Source: an uncultured Chloroflexia bacterium
GTDB lineage: Bacteria > Chloroflexota > Chloroflexia > Thermomicrobiales > JALYUS01
Length of the DNA: 64,000 nt
Assembly: GCA_963763655.1 (NCBI GenBank)
Contig: CAVXPY010000036.1
Span: 113,320 to 177,319 of the forward strand
Direction of reading: 5' to 3'
Position numbers and translations under genes: made by a program. The notes beneath the pieces were generated by a model that had not been told where the DNA came from, did no database searches, and was given only the letters and a program-made list of their open reading frames with translations. How positions within the stretch are numbered: position 1 is the stretch's first letter; each line of letters begins with the position of its first letter. Below are positions 2,417 through 57,766 of this stretch, in pieces.

Positions 2417-2429
2417 GGCAAATCTCCTA

Positions 2430-2530
2430 CCTAACCCCCCGGCCCCCTTCCCTAAAAGGAAGGGGGAGAAATGCGGGGAGATGCCGAGATCAAGTTCCCC
2501 TTCCCTTTAGGGAGGGGGTCAGGGGGTAGG
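2430..2530. repeat. Family A REP-like palindromic doublet (CCTAACCCCCCGGCCCCCTTCCC...GGGAAGGGGG)
   Basis: Two inverted units, each with an internal hairpin; close to the reverse complement of 19647-19771. Confidence 0.9.
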
Positions 2531-3607: not shown

Positions 3608-3744
3608 GCCCCCACCCCCGGCCCCTCCCCCGCAAGCGATGGAGGGGTGTCTCACTGCGACATCCGTGGCGATGATTCACCGTGACCGCTCCCCATCAAG
3701 CCCCCTCTCAGCCGCACGGCGGGGGAGGGGCCGGGGGTGGGGGC
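3608..3744. repeat. Family A REP-like palindromic doublet
   Basis: gcccccacccccggcccctccccc...gggggaggggccgggggtgggggc. Confidence 0.85.
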
Positions 3745-19646: not shown

Positions 19647-19771
19647 CCTACCCCTCGCCCCCTCCCTAAAGGGAAGGGGAACGTGATCTTGGCATCGTGC
19701 TCTTTCTCACATACCGAGGCATTGCAGCGAGTCACCCCCTTCCTTTTAGGGAAGGGGGCCGGGGGGTTAGG
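19647..19771. repeat. Family A REP-like palindromic doublet
   Basis: Reverse-complement-like copy of 2430-2530 between convergent genes; supplies the TAA stop of the nucleoside hydrolase. Confidence 0.9.
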
Positions 19772-20705
19772 ACGGCTTCGGCAACCCCAATGTCTGCGTG
19801 AAATAGTCATTGAATCGCGCGGAGTCGACGGTTTTCGCCACCTTGGTTGCGAAGCCACCTTCGGGGCGACCGGGACGGGTGAGGATCGTCTGACCGGCGG
19901 CGTATTTGCCGCCCGTCTCGATCATCGCGCGCTCCTCGGGTGCATCGACAAGTTTCGGGTCCGCCGCAACGGCAACGGCGAGCGGATCGTGCAGATGGTT
20001 GAGTGGGCGATTGAAGGCGACGAACATCTGCGCGCCCGCCTTCCGCACGATTTGCGCGTTCGGCGCGGTTTCGCCTTCCAGCGCGTCCCACTGCGCGCGG
20101 GTAAAGGCTGCGTGCATCGTCACATCGAGACCGACCCACGTCGCATCGAAGCCCGCTTCCAGTACCTGTGCGGCCGCTTCCGGGTCCGCATAAATGTTGA
20201 ACTCGGCACTTGGCGTCGTGTTCCCCGGCACGCGGAACGCGCCCCCCATGATGACGAGTCGCTTGACGAGCCGCGGCAACTCCGGCTCCAATGCAACCGC
20301 GACCGCGAGGTTTGTGAGCGGCCCGACGAAAATGAAAGTCAGTGCTCCCGGAGCATTGCGCGCCGCATCGATGAGGTATTGTGGTGCGGAAAGCGCCTCG
20401 ACGGTGCGCCGGGAGTCCGGAATATCCGCCCCGCCGAGGCCATCCGAGCCATGCACATGTGCGGCGGTAAAGAGTGGCCGGTCCATCGGGCGGCTCATGC
20501 CCCGATAGACCGGAACCCTCGTCGCACCGACGAAATCGAGGACGCGCAGCGTATTGCGCGTCGTATGTTCCAGTTCGACATTGCCCGCGACCGTCGTGAC
20601 GCCGATCAGGTCAATCGTCGGCGCCGCAACTGCCAACGCAATCGCCATCGCATCGTCCACACCCGTATCAACATCGAGAATCGCGCGAATCGGTTCCAAA
20701 GCCAC
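19767..20705 (-). CDS. Nucleoside hydrolase (IUNH family)
   Basis: ILDVDTGVDDAMA, HGSDGLG, GPLTNLA, AEFNIYADPEAA and LHDPLAV motifs. Confidence 0.95.
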   Translation of the reverse strand: MALEPIRAILDVDTGVDDAMAIALAVAAPTIDLIGVTTVAGNVELEHTTRNTLRVLDFVGATRVPVYRGMSRPMDRPLFTAAHVHGSDGLGGADIPDSRRTVEALSAPQYLIDAARNAPGALTFIFVGPLTNLAVAVALEPELPRLVKRLVIMGGAFRVPGNTTPSAEFNIYADPEAAAQVLEAGFDATWVGLDVTMHAAFTRAQWDALEGETAPNAQIVRKAGAQMFVAFNRPLNHLHDPLAVAVAADPKLVDAPEERAMIETGGKYAAGQTILTRPGRPEGGFATKVAKTVDSARFNDYFTQTLGLPKPS

Positions 20706-27772: not shown

Positions 27773-27851
27773 GGCCCGCCTCCCCAGTACACACAAAAAG
27801 CTTTCGACACATTCTACACATGTCCGTACACTCTTGTCACCTTTCGGGAGA

Positions 27852-27981
27852 CCTAACCCCCCATCCCCCTTCCTTTTAGGGAAGGGGGTGACGCGCCGCA
27901 ATGCCGTGGTGTTTGGAGGAACGCCTTGATATTCGTACTGAGTCACCCCTCCCTCTTTAGGGGAGGGGCCGGCTGAGAGGT
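27852..27981. repeat. Family A REP-like palindromic doublet
   Basis: cctaaccccccatcccccttccttttagggaaggggg...cccctccctctttaggggaggggccgg. Confidence 0.88.
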
Positions 27982-29120: not shown

Positions 29121-30806
29121 TTAGACTTCCATCACCATCGGCATAATCATCGGGCGGCGGCGGGTTTGCTCGTAGAGATACGATCCCGCGACATCTTTGA
29201 TCTTGCGGGTCAAGAAGACTCCATTCCTGCGGGTGGTGGCCGTTCGACGAAATGAGCGAATCGCGCACGCGATCCTTCGTACCCTCGATCAGGTCCGTAC
29301 TGCGCCGCTGCGAGACGAAGCCGCGCGAGACGATGTCCGGCCCGGAGACCAGTTTGCCTGTCTCCTTATCCACCGAGACGACGACCATCAGGATACCGTC
29401 ACGCGCGAGCATCTGCCGGTCGCGGATCACGACTTCACCGACTTCGCCCGCGCCGACACCATCCACAAAGAGGAAGCCGGCATGGACCGTCTCGGTCATG
29501 CCCGCAAAGTCTCGGCGAACGAGACGACGCTGCCATTCTTCGCGAGAACGATCGCGTCTTCGTCCCAGCCCATGCTCTCCGCCAGCCGCTTGATAGAGAA
29601 TGAGATGCCGCTGCTCGCCATGCAGCGGCATGACGTACCGCGGTCGCGTCAGGTTGAGCATCAACTTCAGCTCTTCCGTGGCTGGCGTGCCCGGAGACAT
29701 GCACGGTAGTCAGGGCGGAATAGATGACGTCCGCGCCCTGCTGAAAGAGGTTGTTGATGATCCGCCCGACGCTCGTCTCGTTGCCGGGGATCGGTGTCGC
29801 GCTGATGACGACCGTATCGCCGCGCGATGATCTTCAATTGCCGGTGATCGCCGCCTGCGATGCGGCTGAGGGCGGCCATCGGCTCACCCTGACTGCCGGT
29901 GACGACATAGACGACGCGATCTGGCGGCAGTTCGGATGCGCGCTTGACATCCACGACGACCCGCTGACGGGTCTTGCAGATAATTCGATCCCAAGCGCCA
30001 TCTCGACGTTATTTTCCATGCTCCGCCCAATCGGGCAGACCTTGCGCCCGTACCGCCCCGCGACATCCACGACTTGCTGGATGCGTGAGATCAGCGAGGC
30101 GAAGGTCGCGACGATGATTCGCCCTTCGGCTTGCGCGAAGATGCGGTCAAAGGCGTCGCTCGACGATCCGCTCCGAGGGGGTGAAGCCCGGTCGTCTCGA
30201 CATGCACGCAATCGGACACGAGGGCGAGTACGCCGCGCTTGCCGAACTCGGCAATCTTGCCGAAGTCCGTCGGGTGTCCATCCACGGGCGTTTGATCGAA
30301 CTTGAAGTCGCCGGTATGGACGATCAGCCCGGCAGGCGTCGTGATGCCGAAACCGACGCGAATCCGGGATCGAATGGCAGACGCGGAATGGCTCGATGCT
30401 TGAATGGCCCCGCCTCGATCACATCGTCCATCGCGAGCGGTGATGAGAGCGCCTTGTCGAGCAAACGGCGCTCGCGCAGTTTGACGCTGATCAGGCCGAG
30501 GGTGAGCGGGGTGCCGTAGATCGGCGGATTGCCGAGATCATTGAGCAGATAGGGCTAGCGAACCGATATGGTCCTCATGCCCGTGGGTGATGAAGATACC
30601 GCGAATGCGGTGCAGTCTTGTCCGCGAGATAGGTGATGTCGGGGATGACGAGGTCAACACCGAACATCTCTTCTTCGGGGAATCCGACACCGACATCCAC
30701 GATGATGATGTCGTTCACCATACTCGTAGACGATCATATTTTTGCCGACTTCGCCCATCCCACCAAGCGGGATAATGCGCACGCGCTTTTTTGTTGTCTT
30801 TGCCAA
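29121..30806 (-). CDS. rnj: Ribonuclease J (many frameshifts, likely sequencing indels)
   Basis: Fragments in successive frames: [73 protein letters not shown]. Confidence 0.93.
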
Positions 30807-31015
30807 GGGGAGTATGCCTCCAAACGTGTCGTAATGCGTCCTGCGGCGATCATATTTTGTACCAGACACGCCTCTGCGGGATGCGGCGTGCATGGTTTCG
30901 AGTCCAAAGATTAGTGAACAGTGGACAGTGAGCAGAGCGATGCACTATTCGTCATCGCGTGGTGTCGCAGAGGATCGTCTCGGCTGCCCACTGACTCCGA
31001 CTACCTACTGTCCAC

Positions 31016-31676
31016 TCAGAAGAGCGACAACTGCTCCGGCGGCTCCTCGTCCGATTCCGGTGCCGCCATCGCTTTCGCCTCTTCGAGCAGGGCCGGAATC
31101 TTCGTGATGTCTGCCTTCACATGCTCCATGAAGGCGGGCTGATGCAAGGCGGCAGCGGGATGGATCATCGGGAAGTAAATTCGCCCATCTGCCCGCTTCG
31201 GTTGCCCATGAATCTTCATAATCTTCTCGCCGGGAAAGAACCGCTGCATCGAGAAACGCCCGACAGCGACGATCATGCGGGGGTTGATCAGCGCGATCTG
31301 CCGGTCGAGGTAGTTGCTCGTGCAGGTACTGACCTCGTCCGGCAGCGGATCGCGGTTCCCCGGCGGGCGGCACTTGACGAGGTTCGTGATGAAGACTTGG
31401 CTGCGACTCGATGCCAACGGAGGCAAGGAGATCGTTGAGCAGATTCCCGGCCGCCCCAATGAATGGGCGACCCTGCTGATCTTCATGGAAACCGGGGGCT
31501 TCACCGATGAAGAGGATGGGGGCATCGAACGGGCCATCACCGGGCACGGCTTTCGTGCGCATCTTGCAAAGATCGCATTTCGTGCAGACGCGGATCTCGT
31601 CCGCGATTGCTGCAAGTTGCGCCGCCACATCGTCCCGTATCGCGCTGACCGACCGTCTCTCCTCGTCCTCCTGCAT
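31016..31676 (-). CDS. Uracil-DNA glycosylase family 4 (one frameshift near 31410)
   Basis: CTKCDLC, FIGEAPGFHEDQQGRPFIG, ITNLVKCRPPGNRDP and HPAAAL motifs. Confidence 0.92.
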
Positions 31677-42452: not shown

Positions 42453-43458
42453 TCAATCATCGGTGCGGAGCATCGCGAGCAAATCGGCTTCGACATTGAC
42501 CCCGCCTGCGGTCCTGAGCGGCATCGGCCCCGGCAGTGCGACGCCGATGATCTCGTTCAGCGAGTCCAACCCTTCCGCATCAAGCCATGCGAGGAGGCCA
42601 TCGAGGACTTCGAGGGCGGCGTACGGGTTGATAAATGATGCCGTGCCGACCTGGATCGCCGTTGCGCCCGCCATGAAGAACTCCAGTGCGTCCTCCGTCG
42701 TGGCGATGCCCCCGATGCCGATGACGGGCACCGGGACGGCCTGCGCGACCTGCGACGTCATCCAGACCGCGACGGGCTTCACCGCAGGGCCGGAGAGGCC
42801 GCCGCCGCCCATCGCCAGTTGCGGGCCGCCGTCGCTTCGTGTCGATCCGCATTCCTTTGAGCGTATTGATGAGCGTGATCGCGTCCGCGCCCGCCGCGAC
42901 AACGGACTCCGCGATGGCGACGATGTCCGTCACATTCGGTGAGAGCTTGACGAGCACCGGCAGCGTCGTATTGGCGCGGACCGCCGCCGTCACCTCGCCC
43001 GCCATCACGCAATCGACACCGAACTGCATTCCGCCGACATCGACATTCGGGCAGGAGATATTGACCTCGATTGCCGCGATACCGGGCGCTTCATCGAGGA
43101 GGTGCGCCATCGCGGCGTAGTCATCGACATGCTCGCCGCTGATATTGACGAGCACCTTCGTCTGCCAGCGCTCCCAGATCGGGCCGTACTTGCGGATCGT
43201 CTCGTGAATGCCGGGGTTCTGGAGGCCGATGCTATTGAGCATCCCCGCGTGCGTCTCCGCGATCCGGGGCATCGCGTTCCCTTTGCGGGCGCGGAGCGTC
43301 GTCCCCTTTGAGACGATGCCACCGAGACGCTGAATATCCATGATCCGCGCGTATTCGATGCCGTAGCCGAAGGTGCCGGAGGCGACAAGCACGGGGTTCG
43401 CGAGGACGAGTTCGCGCGAGTTGCGCGGCGCGAGATCGGTTGCCAGGTTCACGACCAT
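42453..43458 (-). CDS. pyrD: Dihydroorotate dehydrogenase 1B catalytic subunit (one frameshift near 42820)
   Basis: [38 protein letters not shown] and [10 protein letters not shown] motifs. Confidence 0.95.
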
Positions 43459-43533
43459 AGCAGATCCTCCATCCGTTTCAATCCTCACCTGATGCGGGAC
43501 ATCAGATGCAAAACACCCTCTTGCGATGATGCG

Positions 43534-44322
43534 TTACCACGCAACCTCGTCCATCGCGAACACCGGCCCCTCGGTACATGTTCGCAGATACCCGCGTTTC
43601 GTCTCCACCACGCAGCCGAGGCAGACACCCATACCGCAGCCCATCTGCTGCTCGATACAGATCTGTACTGGCGGCGTGCGGACGCCGCGATGCTGCTCGA
43701 CTTTCGTCCGCAGCGAGCGGAACATCGGGTTGGGGCCGCAGGCGAAGATGCCGTCCGCCCAATCGAGGTAGTCCGGCATGAGATCGGTGACGAAGCCGAG
43801 ATGCCCGAGGGTGCCATCATCGGTCGCGCGGATCACCTCGACCTGTTCAGGGAGATAATGCAGCGGCAGATGCTTCTCTGCGGTTTGCGCGCCGATCAAT
43901 AGCACGATCTCCGCGCCCTTCGGCAACTCCTCATCCGCCAGCATGACGAGCGGCGCGATGCCCACCCCGCCCGCCACCATCAGTAGGTGTCGTTGGTTCC
44001 CCGAGACGGTAAAGGCGCTCCCGAGCGGCGCGAGGAGGTCCAGTGTGTCACCCGCTTTCCGATCCAGCAGCCATGCCGAGCCACGCCCGACATTCTGCAC
44101 GAGGATCAGCCCTTCATCCGTCGCCGGGTCCACGCCGAGGAGCGACATCGGGCGACGCAGCAGCGGGTCCCACTGATCCCCACTCTCTGCTGTGCGGATA
44201 TGGACGAACTGCCCGGCGCGCGCCTGCGTCGCAACATTGTGCGGCAACCGCACGCGCAGCACGACACTCCCGCGCCCCGCAGGCTCATTCTCGATAACTG
44301 GCGCACTGAACATCTGGGTCAC
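43534..44322 (-). CDS. pyrK: Dihydroorotate dehydrogenase electron-transfer subunit
   Basis: LLRRPMS, AGGVGIAP, ACGP and MGCGMGVCLGC..CTEGPVF motifs. Confidence 0.95.
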   Translation of the reverse strand: MTQMFSAPVIENEPAGRGSVVLRVRLPHNVATQARAGQFVHIRTAESGDQWDPLLRRPMSLLGVDPATDEGLILVQNVGRGSAWLLDRKAGDTLDLLAPLGSAFTVSGNQRHLLMVAGGVGIAPLVMLADEELPKGAEIVLLIGAQTAEKHLPLHYLPEQVEVIRATDDGTLGHLGFVTDLMPDYLDWADGIFACGPNPMFRSLRTKVEQHRGVRTPPVQICIEQQMGCGMGVCLGCVVETKRGYLRTCTEGPVFAMDEVAW

Positions 44323-44370: not shown

Positions 44371-47300
44371 TCAATACCCCCGACCGACCGTGCTCCGGTA
44401 CGCGGGCAGCGGTTGCACGGTGTATGCCTCGTTGCCGACGCGCATTGCCTCGATCATCGCGCGGGCGGTATCCATGCTGGTGATGCAGGGAACGCCACGC
44501 TCCACCGCCGCCCGGCGCATCAGGAAGGCATCGGCGACCTCGCGGTCCACCGGTCCCGGTGTATTGATGACTGCGTGCACGGTGCCACTGGAGATCAGGT
44601 CGAGCATATCCGGAGACCCCAGACCGATCCGGTGGGCGATACCCTGCACCGGGATGCTGTGCGCTTCCAACCACGCGGCCGTCCCCTCGGTCGCGTAGGT
44701 ATGGAAACCCATCCGCACGAGCGATTCCATGATCGTCGCGTACTCATCTGTTTTGTCGCTATCCTGCAAGGAGACGACGACGCTGCCGCGCTCCGGCAAG
44801 GACATTCCGGCGGCGGCGATTGCCTTGATGAAGGCGGGGGCGAAAGTGCGGTCGATGCCCATCGCCTCGCCGGTGGACTTCATCTCCGGCCCGAGGCCGA
44901 CCTCGACACCGCGCAGCTTCGCCATCGAGAAGACGGGCGCTTTGACCGCGACGAGCGGGCCGCGCGGCCACAAGCCCCCGTCGTACCCCTGATCCTTGAG
45001 GCTCTTACCGAGCATGATATTCGTCGCCAGCTTGACCATCGGCACGCCCGTCACCTTCGAGAGGAAGGGGACTGTCCGGCTGGCGCGCGGGTTCACTTCG
45101 ATGACGTAGAGGCGCGCGCGATAGATCACGTACTGAATATTCATCAGACCGCGCACGCCCATCGCCAGCGCGATCCGCGTCGTGTACTCGACGACTTGCT
45201 CGACTTCGGTCGGGTAGAGATTGACGCCGGGATAGACCGCGAACGAATCACCGGAATGGACGCCCGCGCGCTCGATATGCTCCATCACGCCGGGAATGAG
45301 GACATCGGTGCCGTCGCAGATCGCGTCTACCTCGACCTCTTTGCCGGCGAGGTATTTATCAATCAAGACCGGCTTATCCGAGAGCAGCACCGCGCGGCTG
45401 AGGTAGTTCCGCAAGTCATCTTCGGTATGCACGACCTCCATCGCCCGCCCGCCGAGCACGTACGAGGGCCGCACGAGCACCGGGATAGCCGATGGCTTCC
45501 GCCGCCATCTCCGCATCAAGGAGCGTGCGCACTGCGGTGCCCGGCGGCTGCGGAATACCGACCTGCCGCAGGAACTTCTCGAACCGCTTGCGATCCTCCG
45601 CGAGGTCAATCGCCTCCTGCCCGGAGCCGAGAATCGGCACCCCAAGCGCCGCCAGCGGCCCCGCGAGATTGATCGCCGTCTGCCCGCCAAACTGGAGCAC
45701 GACGGGCGGGGTGTTGGCAGAGGCTCCCCCCACCCCCGGCCCCACCCCCGCCGTGCGGGAGAGGGGAACTAACGCCGCGTCCCCTCCATCACCCATCGAG
45801 GGCAACGTAGCCACGGATGCGGCCACCGCAGCACCCACGGCACTTGCGGCAGCAACAAGGCTCCCCGCATTCTCTCCCCTTCCCCCGTGGGAAGGGGGTT
45901 GGGGGGTTAGGGTATCCCGTCCCCTCATGGTAGAGAATATCCATCACGCCCTCTTCATCGAGCGGGCCGATGTAGAGGCGGTCGGAGGTATCGAAGTCGG
46001 TGCTGACCGTCTCCGGGTTGTTGTTGAGCATGATCGAGCGGACATTCGCGGCGTGGAGGGCGTGCGCGGCCTGCACACAGGAGTAATCGAACTCGATTCC
46101 CTGCCCGATGCGGATCGGCCCGCTGCCGATCACGACCGCCTTGGGGCCGGGCGAGCGGCTCCGCTTCATTCTCATCCTCGTAGGTAGTGTAGAAGTACGG
46201 CGTCGCGGCATCGAACTCGGCGGCACACGTATCGACCATCTTGCAGACGGGCACGATGCCGACCGCGCGCCGTCGCGCCGCAATCTCCGCCTCCGGTGTC
46301 TCGGTGATCCGCCCGAGCGAGGCATCACCGAAGCCGATCCGCTTCGCTTCCCACAATAACTCATCCGTCAGCGGTTCACGTGCCAACCGCTCCTCCATCG
46401 CCACGATGGCGGCGAGGCGGCGCGTGAACCACGGGTCGATCCCCGTATCGGCGGAGAGTGTTTCCGCCGACATACCGCGCCGCAGGCGGGCCATCAGCGC
46501 CCATAACCGCTGATCGTTCGGGCGGCGCACGAGATCATCGAGGAGATCGGCGACCCTCGGGGCCATCCCACGACTGCTCTTCCCAACCGAGATCGCGCTG
46601 ATCCCATTCGAGCGAGCGCACCGCCTTTTGCAGTGCCGCCTCGAAGGAGCGATCAATCGCCATCACTTCGCCCGTCGCCTTCATCTGCGTGCCAATCGTC
46701 CGCTCGGCGCGATAGAACTTATCGAACGGCCAGCGGGGGATTTTGAGTACGCAGTAATCGAGCGCCGGTTCAAAGGCGGCGGTCGTCTTCGCGGTGACGG
46801 CGTTCGGGATGTCCCGCAGGAGCTTGCCGATGGCGATCTTCGCCGCGACCCGCGCGATCGGGTAGCCCGTCGCCTTCGAGGCGAGCGCGGAGGAACGACT
46901 GACGCGCGGGTTCACCTCGATCACGTAATACTGGGAGGAGCGCGGGTCGAGCGCGAACTGGATATTGCAGCCACCCTCGATGCCGAGCGCGCGGATGATC
47001 CGCAGTGAGGCGGAGCGCAGCATCTGGTAATCGCGGTCCGACAACGTCTGCGAGGGTGCAACGACGATGCTATCCCCCGTATGAACGCCGACCGGATCGA
47101 AGTTTTCCATATTGCAGATCGTGATGCAGGTATCCGCGCTGTCGCGCATCACCTCGTACTCGACTTCCTTCCAGCCAAGCAGTGATCGTTCGAGAAGAAT
47201 CTGATGGATCGGGCTGGCATGGAGGCCCGCGAGCACTCGGGCATCGAGTTCGTCCCAGGTGTCCGCGATGCCGCCGCCGGTGCCGCCGAGCGTGTAGGCG

Positions 47301-47824
47301 GGGCGGATAATGAGCGGCGGCGGGACGAGCCGCGCGAACGCGTGCGCTTCCTCAAGGGTGTGGCAGATCGCACTCGCGATGGACGGTTCGCCGATACTCT
47401 CCAACGTCTCTTTGAAGAGCGCGCGGTCTTCCGCCTTCTTGATCGACTCCAGCGGCGTGCCGAGCATACGGACGTTGTACTTTTCGAGAACGCCCGCTTC
47501 GGCCAGTTGCACCGCGAGATTGAGCCCCGTCTGCCCGCCGAGCGTCGGCAGGAGGCCATCGGGCCGCTCGCGCTGAATGATGCGCCGGAGAACATCGACC
47601 GTCAGCGGTTCGATATAGACGACATCCGCGACATCTTCGTCGGTCATGATCGTCGCCGGGTTGGAGTTGACGAGGACGACACGCACGCCCTCTTCGCGCA
47701 GGGCACGGCACGCTTGCGTTCCCGCATAGTCAAATTCCGCCGCTTGCCCGATGACTATCGGGCCGGAACCGATCACGAAGACCGTCCGGGGCGTCTCAGG
47801 CACATTCGATGCGGGCGTCGTCAC
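44371..47824 (-). CDS. carB: Carbamoyl-phosphate synthase large subunit (frameshifts; about 70-aa repeat-derived insertion)
   Basis: [84 protein letters not shown] and an MGS domain. Confidence 0.96.
45722..45913. repeat. Family A doublet inside carB
   Basis: ctccccccacccccggccccacccccgccgtgcgggagagggg...ccccttcccccgtgggaagggggttggggggttaggg. Confidence 0.88.
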
Positions 47825-53100: not shown

Positions 53101-53110
53101 AACGCTCGCC

Positions 53111-53213
53111 GCCCCTCCCCCGACCCCCTCCCGCTGTGCGGGAGAGGGGAGCTGTTACTCCCCTTCGGGTGCCGCTTTGGGCAGGACCTGGGGAAGGGGC
53201 CGGGGGTTAGGGC
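53111..53213. repeat. Family A REP-like palindromic doublet
   Basis: gcccctcccccgaccccctcccgctgtgcgggagagggg...ggggaaggggccgggggttagggc. Confidence 0.85.
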
Positions 53214-57680: not shown

Positions 57681-57766
57681 TGGTGCCGAAGGAGGGACTC
57701 GAACCCTCATGCCCTTGCGGACAACGGTTTTTGAGACCGTCGCGTCTGCCATTCCGCCACTTCGGC
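57681..57766 (-). tRNA. tRNA-Leu(CAA)
   Basis: GCCGAAGTGGCGGAATGGCAGACGCGACGGT-CTCAAAA-ACCGT, long variable arm, GGTTCGAGTCC, ending TTCGGCACCA. Confidence 0.97.

What the first reader, a model, noticed from the sequence alone, without database searches (positions are those of the whole stretch)
45700..45930. Palindromic repeat domesticated inside carB as an in-frame insertion of about 70 aa
Seen: between ILYHE and [16 protein letters not shown], where CarB normally has only a few residues, there are about 210 nt bounded by two inverted family A units. One frame is open across the whole insert ([14 protein letters not shown]...[14 protein letters not shown]) and continues into QFGGQT; only a single indel at its upstream edge is needed, in an indel-rich zone. 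The same element is intergenic at 2430, 3608, 19647, 27852 and 53111. Known analogy: Rickettsia palindromic elements inserted in protein-coding genes. Inference: a mobile non-autonomous palindrome is creating peptide insertions in surface loops of core enzymes in this lineage.
Basis: partly seen in the sequence, partly recalled or inferred. Interest (0 to 1): 0.72.

Follow-up and report, generated by a model that had tools for sequence, protein, structure and literature searches.

The report
Translated palindromic repeat inside carB
A copy of this bacterium's commonest hairpin-forming "junk" repeat sits inside the essential enzyme gene carB and is read through as an extra 54-77 amino-acid loop in all relatives examined, a Rickettsia-like case of selfish DNA tolerated inside a protein.

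Summary
carB (minus strand, 44371-47824) carries a 214-nt insert at 45710-45923, where E. coli CarB has 5 residues (632-636). Its two inverted arms belong to a palindromic repeat family with 269 loci in this genome.

The insert is old and is read through. Eight congeneric genomes have it at the same site inside one continuous CarB frame. All 13 relatives' inserts examined are multiples of 3 nt and free of stops.

In the window the insert is out of frame (214 nt). This is one of four single-base indels in this carB, and they look like assembly errors. No reads of this strain were found to test that.

"Domesticated" is not supported: I found no evidence of a function. The wider inference is only partly supported. 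I found one further in-gene copy (a DUF2079 membrane protein). None of the 12 other flank-tested copies was in-gene; most lie between clearly separate neighbouring genes.

In a sister family the same CarB loop holds other palindromic elements built from 7-nt repeats, each typical of its own genome. So the site is either a hot spot or is renewed in place.

The kind is known (RPEs; REPs inside genes). This scan has reported similar in-frame heptamer hairpins on other DNA.

The parts
44371..47824 (-). carB (carbamoyl-phosphate synthase large subunit), the only full copy found in this assembly. In the window it is broken into five overlapping reading-frame pieces.
   Evidence: ORF list. Own-genome search finds one full match plus its internal paralogous half and weak ATP-grasp hits. 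E 5e-287 to E. coli CarB chain 1bxr_A for the G004 orthologue.
45710..45923 (-). The insert: 214 nt between the codons for ...ILYHE and [11 protein letters not shown]. It replaces the 5-residue loop 632-636 of E. coli CarB.
   Evidence: Mapping on 1bxr_A: query residues 607-678 are unaligned between chain residues 631 and 637.
45876..45911 (-). Gene-5' arm: a family A unit (C-rich tail plus local hairpin). Relatives read it as PNPPxPFPxxEGG. The frame-breaking length error of the window lies in its C and G runs.
   Evidence: matches to dispersed copies. (comparison with congeners: the window's hairpin has one C and one G fewer than that of G006).
45767..45875 (-). Central spacer, Ala/Val/Gly-rich when translated. 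It cannot be aligned among congeners and varies in length.
   Evidence: mean pairwise identity 49%; middle lengths 52-121 nt.
45726..45766 (-). Gene-3' arm: the inverse family A unit. Relatives read it as SPLSRxAGEGxGVG.
2429..2530 (.). Family A copy, intergenic.
   Evidence: nhmmer.
3610..3742 (.). Family A copy, intergenic.
   Evidence: nhmmer.
19647..19772 (.). Family A copy, canonical, starting right after a stop codon.
27850..27979 (.). Family A copy, canonical.
53105..53212 (.). Degenerate family A-like pair, found by the unit pattern only and not by the profile. Coordinates are approximate.
   Evidence: absent from the nhmmer list.

Best explanation
A non-autonomous palindromic element of this genome's main repeat family landed in carB before the genus radiated. 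The family has two inverted units of about 40 nt, each a C-rich tail plus its own hairpin, around a spacer of about 57 nt, and occupies 269 loci.

The element sits in the short loop between a helix and a strand of the N-terminal subdomain of the second ATP-grasp half of CarB. In E. coli numbering this is between residues 631 and 637.

It is inherited vertically and translated with the enzyme as a Pro/Gly/Ala-rich loop of 54-77 residues. It persists because that loop tolerates extra length, and I saw no sign that it gained a function. Only indels in multiples of three and stop-free variants survive.

The frame break seen in the window is most likely a consensus error in homopolymer runs of the arm. 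It is one of four single-base indels in this carB copy.

Shown: family membership, position, age, and frame and openness in relatives. Inferred: translation, tolerance, and that the break is an assembly error.
For: Family membership:
- 431 unit matches against 53 in the reversed-genome control.
- 89 pairs, all tail-out, 0 divergent; 61 of 89 have a 55-59 nt spacer.
- 269 distinct profile loci, 190 of them at least 100 nt.
- Both carB arms match dispersed copies at 88-95% identity.

Age:
- Of 10 other genomes of the genus, 8 have the insert at the same site (G001, G003-G006, G008-G010).
- In G007 the contigs break inside the insert.
- No carB match was found in G002.

Reading through:
- CarB frames are open across the insert (589-1123 aa within the fetched loci; the shorter ones are cut by locus or contig ends).
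- Insert lengths are 210, 231, 207, 207, 204, 231, 189 and 162 nt in the genus, and 162, 147, 111, 114 and 183 nt in other genera. That is 13 of 13 multiples of three without stops.

Tolerant site: the same loop is 2-14 residues in lineages without an element, for example G031, G020, G018, G013 and G025.

Assembly error: the four G000-specific 1-nt indels in carB lie at about 46553, 46153, inside the arm, and 45484. Short-read contigs of relatives lack one base at 46153/46155. Codon positions 1 and 2 of the flanks stay 96% identical among the 9 genomes, G000 included.

A second case: DUF2079 carries a family A element in frame in G000, G004 and G008.
Against: - The window's own copy is out of frame as assembled, and no reads of this strain were available (best share of words 0.09). 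A real frameshift cannot be excluded.
- pyrD next door is also frame-broken.
- There is no RNA or protein evidence.
- Surface exposure of the loop was not shown. The AlphaFold model had mean pLDDT 54, with residues 1-157 under 50.
- Hairpin potential is kept in most relatives (z from -1.9 to -5.2 in the genus). Pure neutral decay would not obviously give this.
- Two of the eight in-frame congeners (G005, G006) are unpublished genomes.
Confidence: 0.8

Rival explanations
1. History A: one ancient element insertion in this loop, followed by renewal in place. Later repeat families insert into, or overwrite, the resident hairpin, so each genome's carB copy wears that genome's current repeat.
For: - The same loop holds family A in the genus. 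It holds GTCGAAG-type 7-nt arrays in G012 and G024, ATGACGA arrays in G028 and GGCCGTT/GGCCCAC arrays in G032.
- These arms are genome-wide repeats in their own genomes: 100, 101 and 64 BLAST matches.
- The same turnover is seen at orthologous sites outside carB. The gap|pgk spacer has family A in three genomes, a solo hairpin in G004, GGACTGA arrays in G008, and is empty in G010.
- G002's DUF2079 site is a hybrid: a family A tail followed by GCAATGA arrays. G010's carB insert holds an extra internal unit.
Against: - The CarB tree does not resolve whether the two insert-bearing families are sisters; 7 of 18 inner branches are open.
- G012's and G028's inserts are complete canonical elements of 111 and 114 nt that align end to end with intergenic copies at 68-76% identity, as fresh insertions would.
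- Three genomes of G012's own genus have only 2-15 residues in the loop, with no remnant of an element recognised.
Confidence: 0.4
2. History B: the loop is a hot spot, hit independently by different element families. The cause could be a target preference of the elements or the fact that few places in CarB tolerate 40-70 extra residues.
For: - G020 and G016, of the same genus as G012, lack both the carB insert and the whole repeat family: 0 matches.
- The elements in G012 and G028 are full-length and canonical.
- An empty site exists in G010 for two intergenic positions, so elements do come and go.
- Di Nocera et al. 2013 report different REPs at about the same site in recB of two Xanthomonas species (PMC3733652, passages read).
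Against: - At least four independent hits in one loop of a protein of about 1100 residues would be needed. No other CarB position showed an element in the order survey.
- No target-site duplication or shared target motif was evident at the two filled/empty comparisons.
Confidence: 0.4
3. The insert has been co-opted. Either the mRNA/DNA hairpin or the extra loop does something useful for carB, such as a translational pause, an effect on mRNA stability, or an interaction surface.
For: - It is retained across a genus, with hairpin potential kept: z from -1.9 to -5.2 in 9 congeners and -5.1 to -6.5 in G024, G012, G028 and G032.
- Stems differ between species yet still pair.
- Many intergenic copies abut start codons.
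Against: - Arms are no better conserved than synonymous sites.
- The middle is free to vary from 52 to 121 nt.
- G011's insert has lost the fold (z -0.4).
- Close relatives do without it: G031 has 2 residues in the loop.
- The same structure-keeping evolution is seen in intergenic copies, so it is a property of the element, not of carB.
Confidence: 0.12
4. carB of this organism is a true pseudogene, so the insert here is no longer translated.
For: - There are four frame-breaking indels in 3.45 kb, and a broken pyrD beside it.
- Other G000 genes that I translated were open over 300 residues or more.
Against: - This is the only carB found in the assembly.
- There are no in-frame stops other than those caused by the shifts, and no large deletions.
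- Positions 1 and 2 are 96% conserved.
- At least one indel sits in a homopolymer run.
- Estimated completeness of 74% for a 52-contig assembly of 5.2 Mb fits an indel-prone assembly.
Confidence: 0.1
5. Artefact: misassembly or a chimeric join through a repeat.
For: Repeats do break short-read assemblies here. G007's contigs end inside the insert, and G114's contig starts at its edge.
Against: Eight independent assemblies of other species carry it in the same place. One metagenome contig of a relative also bridges it, with both arms present and 156 nt in place of 121.
Confidence: 0.01

Closest known systems
Rickettsia palindromic elements (RPEs; Ogata et al. 2000, as summarised in the MITE review PMC10969869 and in PMC3733652; passages read)
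   Same: A dispersed palindromic repeat of about 100-150 nt inserted in frame in conserved metabolic genes. It is translated as an extra peptide and thought to be tolerated in loops.
   Different: The lineage is different: a free-living soil bacterium with a 5.2 Mb genome. The sequence family is unrelated. In-gene copies are rare here (2 of 269 loci found), whereas nearly half are in genes for some RPE families. The same loop carries other repeat families in sister lineages.
REPs, BIMEs and REPINs, including REPs inside genes (Di Nocera et al. 2013, PMC3733652, passages read; Bertels and Rainey 2011, PMC3116915, search listing only)
   Same: Short hairpin units occur mostly as inverted doublets at fixed spacing, between co-directional or convergent genes. 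Some lie within ORFs. Different REPs are reported at about the same site of recB in two Xanthomonas species.
   Different: There is no GTAG or CGTC tag as a consensus at the unit end. The only Y1-transposase (RAYT-like) gene found is flanked by a different, GTAG-tagged hairpin, with no family A locus within about 10 kb.
Heptameric simple-sequence repeats, some as inverted pairs (Rehm et al. 2015, PMC4692102, passages read)
   Same: The inserts of G012, G024, G028 and G032, and the elements at gap|pgk (G008) and DUF2079 (G002), are inverted arrays of a 7-nt unit. They lie close to gene ends and are species-specific in sequence.
   Different: Family A itself is not a clean 7-nt array: it is a tail plus a covarying hairpin. 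That paper treats G-quadruplex formation, not in-frame palindromes in enzymes.
MITEs with in-frame fusions (ERIC, BOX, Anabaena MITEs; review PMC10969869, passages read)
   Same: Small, non-coding, with terminal inverted repeats, many copies, and occasional in-frame intragenic copies.
   Different: No target-site duplication was seen at two filled/empty comparisons. No parent insertion sequence was identified. Spacers are poorly conserved between species at orthologous sites.

Membership tests
In-frame intragenic palindromic element (RPE-like) | Member of a dispersed repeat family of the same genome | tested here: met
   269 loci. Both arms match other copies at 88-95% identity. Control: 431 against 53.
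In-frame intragenic palindromic element (RPE-like) | Lies inside a conserved gene whose homologues elsewhere lack it | tested here: met
   E. coli CarB has 5 residues there. G018, G013, G025, G031 and G020 have 2-14. All 150 rows listed in the order survey cover the site in one stretch of 630-699 nt.
In-frame intragenic palindromic element (RPE-like) | Length a multiple of three, no stop, host frame continues | tested here: inconclusive
   Met in 13 of 13 relatives. Not met in the window as assembled (214 nt). Likely an assembly error, but no reads were available.
In-frame intragenic palindromic element (RPE-like) | Hairpin-forming (palindromic) | tested here: met
   Inverted arms. Folding z-scores are -1.9 for the window, -2.1 to -5.2 for congeners, and -5.1 to -6.5 for G024, G012, G028 and G032. 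G011 is -0.4.
In-frame intragenic palindromic element (RPE-like) | Sits in a surface loop compatible with the fold | tested here: inconclusive
   Maps between a helix end (residue 631) and a strand start (residue 637) of 1bxr_A. The AlphaFold model from 18 sequences was too poor to use (pLDDT under 50 for residues 1-157).
In-frame intragenic palindromic element (RPE-like) | Retained in mRNA and protein | not testable with these tools
   No RNA holder was listed. One bridging contig comes from a library whose RNA label is a guess.
REP/REPIN with cognate RAYT | Inverted doublets of a hairpin unit at fixed spacing | tested here: met
   89 tail-out pairs, 0 divergent, 61 of 89 with a 55-59 nt spacer.
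REP/REPIN with cognate RAYT | GTAG or CGTC tetranucleotide tag at the unit end | tested here: not met
   Outer ends read CCTAACC, CCTACC, CCTCACC or CCCCACC in the alignment of 69 copies. GGTAGG occurs only in a subset.
REP/REPIN with cognate RAYT | A RAYT gene flanked by the same units | tested here: not met
   There is a single PF01797 hit (24.3 bits). It is flanked by a different GTAG hairpin, and no family A locus lies between 20 and 42 kb of that contig.
MITE | Terminal inverted repeats, no coding capacity, many copies | tested here: met
MITE | Target-site duplication | tested here: inconclusive
   No direct duplication is evident at atpD|atpC or gap|pgk when G010 (empty) is compared with the filled genomes. 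Only two sites were compared.
MITE | Parent insertion sequence with the same ends | not tested
   No search was made for a transposase gene bounded by family A ends.
Inverted heptamer-array hairpins | Arms are tandem copies of one 7-nt unit, with the inverse array on the other side | tested here: not met
   Not met for the window's family A, which has a tail plus a local hairpin and only a loose 7-nt spacing of C runs. Met for the carB inserts of G012, G024, G028 and G032.

The most novel reading that the evidence does not exclude
Hairpin repeats of this order are self-renewing residents of fixed sites. Once a palindrome is lodged at a site, including loops of essential proteins such as CarB and a DUF2079 membrane protein, later repeat families target or overwrite it. 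Templated repair keeps the arms paired. The site then outlives any one sequence family, and the protein loop is rewritten again and again without breaking the gene.
Probability: 0.35. Interest if true: 0.7.

Novelty: new member of a known kind. Interest (0 to 1): 0.5.

Why it matters
It extends the Rickettsia phenomenon of selfish palindromes translated inside working enzymes to a free-living soil lineage and to an essential, well-studied enzyme with solved structures. CarB here offers a natural series of loop lengths, from 2 to 77 residues at one position, which could be used to test how much foreign sequence an ATP-grasp subdomain tolerates.

The finding that one loop, and orthologous intergenic sites, carry different repeat families in related genomes makes a question testable: do bacterial hairpin repeats target each other, or renew in place?

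Practically, such inserts break short-read assemblies and attract homopolymer errors in long-read ones. Annotators should expect false 'pseudogenes' at these sites.

Tried and rejected
- Reads. No public run holds this strain (best share of words 0.09; no RNA holder listed). Laying four runs gave only two near-identical 151-nt pieces away from the insert, plus relatives' contigs. The frame could not be checked and expression could not be judged.
- Structure. AlphaFold on an 18-row alignment gave mean pLDDT 54, with the whole N-terminal subdomain under 50. I did not use it for exposure or disorder.
- Rfam at gathering thresholds found only a tRNA in the window and nothing on the elements.
- Coding-potential screens. 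A codon-usage classifier on the flanks could not tell 'inside a gene' from 'between two co-directional genes'. A count of same-strand frame switches as a measure of assembly quality was invalid, because stop-to-stop frames of neighbouring genes overlap anyway. I dropped both.
- In-gene screen, and its limits. There were 44 open-frame spans over elements. I sent the 6 best to Pfam as whole spans, plus both flanks of 12 further loci. Two fetched loci (L026, L036) were not sent. Old, diverged in-gene copies would be missed by the profile. The indel-rich assembly hides open frames. So 2 of 269 is a lower bound.
- Naming the organism. The search for related loci returned only distant CarB genes from many phyla, none with the insert, and did not return the close relatives.
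- CarB tree. Deep branches were unresolved, so the number of insertion events could not be counted.
- Considered and rejected: an intein or intron. The insert is low-complexity, varies from 111 to 231 nt, and is in frame in all relatives.
- Literature. Searches listed no paper on palindromic or heptamer elements inside carB or in this lineage. Most subscription journals are not in the library.
Full report
**What is there**

carB lies on the minus strand from 47824 to 44371. In the window it is split into five overlapping frames. It is the only full carB in the 5.19 Mb, 52-contig assembly. The other matches are its own internal paralogous half and weak ATP-grasp relatives.

Between the codons for ...DILYHE and [11 protein letters not shown] lie 214 nt, at 45710-45923. 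I aligned the orthologue of genome G004 with E. coli CarB (1bxr_A, E 5e-287). Its 72 extra residues fall between chain residues 631 and 637. These are the end of a helix (...LEIVR) and the start of the strand GVIVQYGGQT, in the second, carbamoyl-phosphate-forming half of the enzyme.

**The repeat family**

The insert ends in two inverted units, at 45876-45911 and 45726-45766. Each unit is a C-rich tail followed by its own short hairpin.

- A loose pattern for such units finds 431 in the genome against 53 in the reversed genome.
- Of 393 units of at least 26 nt, 178 form 89 pairs. All pairs have the tails outward, none is the other way round, and 61 of 89 have a spacer of 55-59 nt.
- An alignment of 69 canonical copies shows an element of about 120-130 nt. 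The tails are conserved. The hairpins differ in sequence between subfamilies but still pair. There is a short conserved motif after the first hairpin and a loosely conserved spacer.
- A profile built from this alignment finds 269 distinct loci, 190 of them at least 100 nt. The fifth, near 53111, is degenerate.
- Both carB arms match dispersed copies at 88-95% identity. The profile hits 45856-45913 at E 4e-6.
- Rfam has nothing on these elements.

**Age and reading frame**

Ten other genomes of the genus were searched.

- Eight (G001, G003, G004, G005, G006, G008, G009, G010) carry an insert at the same place. CarB is one open frame across it, 589-1123 residues within the fetched loci.
- In G007 two contigs end inside the insert. 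In G002 no carB was found.
- The eight inserts measure 207, 231, 207, 210, 204, 231, 162 and 189 nt in that order.
- A second genus of the family (G011, 162 nt) and four genomes of a second family also have inserts there: G024 147 nt, G012 111, G028 114, G032 183.
- All 13 are multiples of three and free of stops. The several different lengths within the genus mean repeated indels, each in threes.

The relatives read the gene-5' arm as GxGxPNPPxPFPxxEGG and the gene-3' arm as SPLSRxAGEGxGVG. The window's upstream frame gives the first of these, and its downstream frame gives the second. So the length error lies in the C and G runs of the 5' arm. There the window has one C and one G fewer than G006.

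G005 and G006 are flagged unpublished. Two of the eight in-frame observations, two rows of alignment A1, and the DUF2079 remnant in G006 rest on them.

**Is the window's break real?**

Against five congeners, this carB has four private single-base indels: at about 46553, 46153, inside the arm, and 45484. Short-read contigs of relatives lack one base at 46153/46155.

Positions 1 and 2 of the flanking codons are 96% identical among the nine genomes, G000 included, and third positions 64-69%. So selection on the protein held until very recently, if it is not still holding. pyrD beside it is also frame-broken. I read these as consensus errors of an indel-prone assembly (completeness 74%).

No run holds this strain, so a recent pseudogene cannot be excluded.

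**Domesticated?**

I found no sign of it.

- Arm identity among the nine congeners is 69% (5' arm) and 62% (3' arm). This is like synonymous sites. The middle is unalignable (49%) and varies from 52 to 121 nt.
- The inserts do keep hairpin potential. Z-scores against dinucleotide shuffles are -1.9 for the window, -2.1 to -5.2 for congeners, and -5.1 to -6.5 for G024, G012, G028 and G032. G011 has lost it (-0.4).
- The same structure-keeping change is seen at an orthologous intergenic site, atpD|atpC. So it belongs to the element, not to carB.

**How general?**

Most copies are not in genes. There were 44 open frames spanning an element. I sent the six best to Pfam as whole spans, plus both flanks of 12 further loci whose flanks looked coding on one strand.

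- In none of the 12 did one Pfam family continue across the element. In 10 of them each flank held its own complete or end-to-end domain, so the element lies between two genes: gap|pgk, atpD|atpC, trpC|trpF, argB and an aminotransferase, and ABC transporter genes.
- In the other two one flank was uninformative: L033's right flank had no hit, and L023's right flank had only a hit below Pfam's cut-off.
- One whole span was a true in-gene case: a DUF2079 membrane protein (G000 contig 50, 66944-68569, minus strand).
- Its orthologues in G004 and G008 have a family A element in frame at the same place, within open frames of 670 and 673 residues.
- G002 has a hybrid there, a family A tail followed by inverted GCAATGA arrays. 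G006 has a short remnant.

So in-gene copies exist beyond carB but are rare: at least 2 of 269. This is a lower bound, for the reasons given under Tried and rejected.

**The unexpected part**

In the second family the CarB loop holds quite different palindromes, whose arms are tandem 7-nt units.

- G012 has GTCGAAG and G024 a variant of it. G028 has ATGACGA. G032 has GGCCGTT against GGCCCAC.
- Each is a genome-wide repeat in its own genome: 100 and 101 BLAST matches for G012 and G024, and 64 for G028.
- G020 and G016, of G012's genus, have neither the insert nor the repeat: 0 matches.
- G031, also of G012's genus, has only two residues in the loop.

I surveyed 192 genomes of the order with an insert-free 220-residue CarB segment. 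All 150 listed rows cover the site in one stretch of 630-699 nt. The split or weak cases that I followed up outside the two families (ten genomes) were contig ends or frameshifts elsewhere. The exception is G114, whose contig starts exactly at the insert's edge.

The same turnover occurs between genes. At gap|pgk three genomes have family A, G004 has a solo long hairpin, G008 has inverted GGACTGA arrays, and G010 has nothing.

The CarB tree recovers the window's family (support 99/98) but not the deeper order. I therefore cannot tell one old insertion that is renewed in place from repeated hits on a hot spot. The G002 hybrid and an extra internal unit in G010's carB insert favour nesting. The canonical, full-length elements of G012 and G028, and insert-free close kin, favour fresh hits.

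**Mobility**

The only Y1-transposase-like gene (24.3 bits) is flanked by a different, GTAG-tagged hairpin and has no family A copy near it. No target duplication was evident at two filled/empty comparisons. How family A moves is unknown.

**What is known**

- RPEs in Rickettsia genes, and in-frame MITEs, are reviewed in PMC10969869 (passages read).
- Di Nocera et al. 2013 describe REPs inside genes in several species, and different REPs at about the same place in recB of two Xanthomonas species (PMC3733652, passages read).
- Heptameric repeats, some as inverted pairs and some intragenic, are described by Rehm et al. 2015 (PMC4692102, passages read).
- My four searches listed nothing on carB or on this lineage.

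Earlier notes of this scan report in-frame heptamer hairpins in other genomes. They include cases where 'every relative has one at the same spot with different 7-letter words', which is the same pattern as here.

One note said that larger versions carry the small gene known from rRNA intervening sequences. I checked this. The single PF05635 gene of this genome (contig 28, 43460-43774) is indeed flanked by inverted GAGTAAC-type arrays.

**Verdict**

'Domesticated' and 'core enzymes in general' go beyond the evidence. The result is a new member of a known kind. The open and more interesting question is why one loop hosts a succession of different hairpin repeats.

Noticed in passing
window 42453-43488 (minus strand): pyrD (dihydroorotate dehydrogenase) is split into two overlapping frames, 42580-43488 and 42453-42902. 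This is another single frame break next to carB.
   Followed up: no
G000 contig 28: about 43380-43860 (locus L086): The genome's single PF05635 gene (23S rRNA intervening-sequence protein family, 113 bits) is flanked by inverted arrays of a GAGTAAC-type 7-nt unit. It looks like a gene-carrying version of the heptamer hairpins.
   Followed up: partly
G000 contig 3: about 30500-31100 (locus L075): A RAYT-like Y1 transposase ORF of about 170 residues has a GTAG-tagged hairpin on each side. This is a second repeat system, unrelated to family A.
   Followed up: partly
genome-wide (89 paired elements); for example atpD|atpC in locus L025: The G-rich outer end of family A often sits where a ribosome-binding site would. 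49 of 176 element ends have the start codon of a coding frame within 40 nt outward, many at 4-13 nt. In G010, which lacks the element at atpD|atpC, a similar G-rich stretch precedes the ATG.
   Followed up: partly
L080 (G008, gap|pgk spacer) and L090 (G002, DUF2079): Inverted arrays of GGACTGA and of GCAATGA occupy sites that hold family A in sister species. In G002 a family A tail is still attached to the array.
   Followed up: partly
alignment of 69 canonical copies: Family A falls into subfamilies whose local hairpins differ in sequence and loop but keep pairing, while the outer tails stay the same. This suggests a constraint on structure or templated correction.
   Followed up: no
L012 (G010 carB insert) and L007 (G008 carB insert): G010's insert contains an extra internal unit. 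G008 and G010 share a small additional hairpin inside the 5' tail, read as PPKGHP or PAQRAPG. These are nested additions inside the insert.
   Followed up: no
window 45302-46022, run X3: A 776-nt contig of a relative, from a library labelled RNA-Seq (the RNA label is a guess), bridges the insert with both arms present and 156 nt in place of the window's 121.
   Followed up: no
window 57684-57766 (minus strand): A tRNA gene (Rfam, 60.3 bits).
   Followed up: no
L059 (G114 contig 170): In a distant family of the order, a contig begins exactly at PVIVQFGGQT. This is the right edge of the insertion site, as would happen if a repeat sat there too.
   Followed up: no
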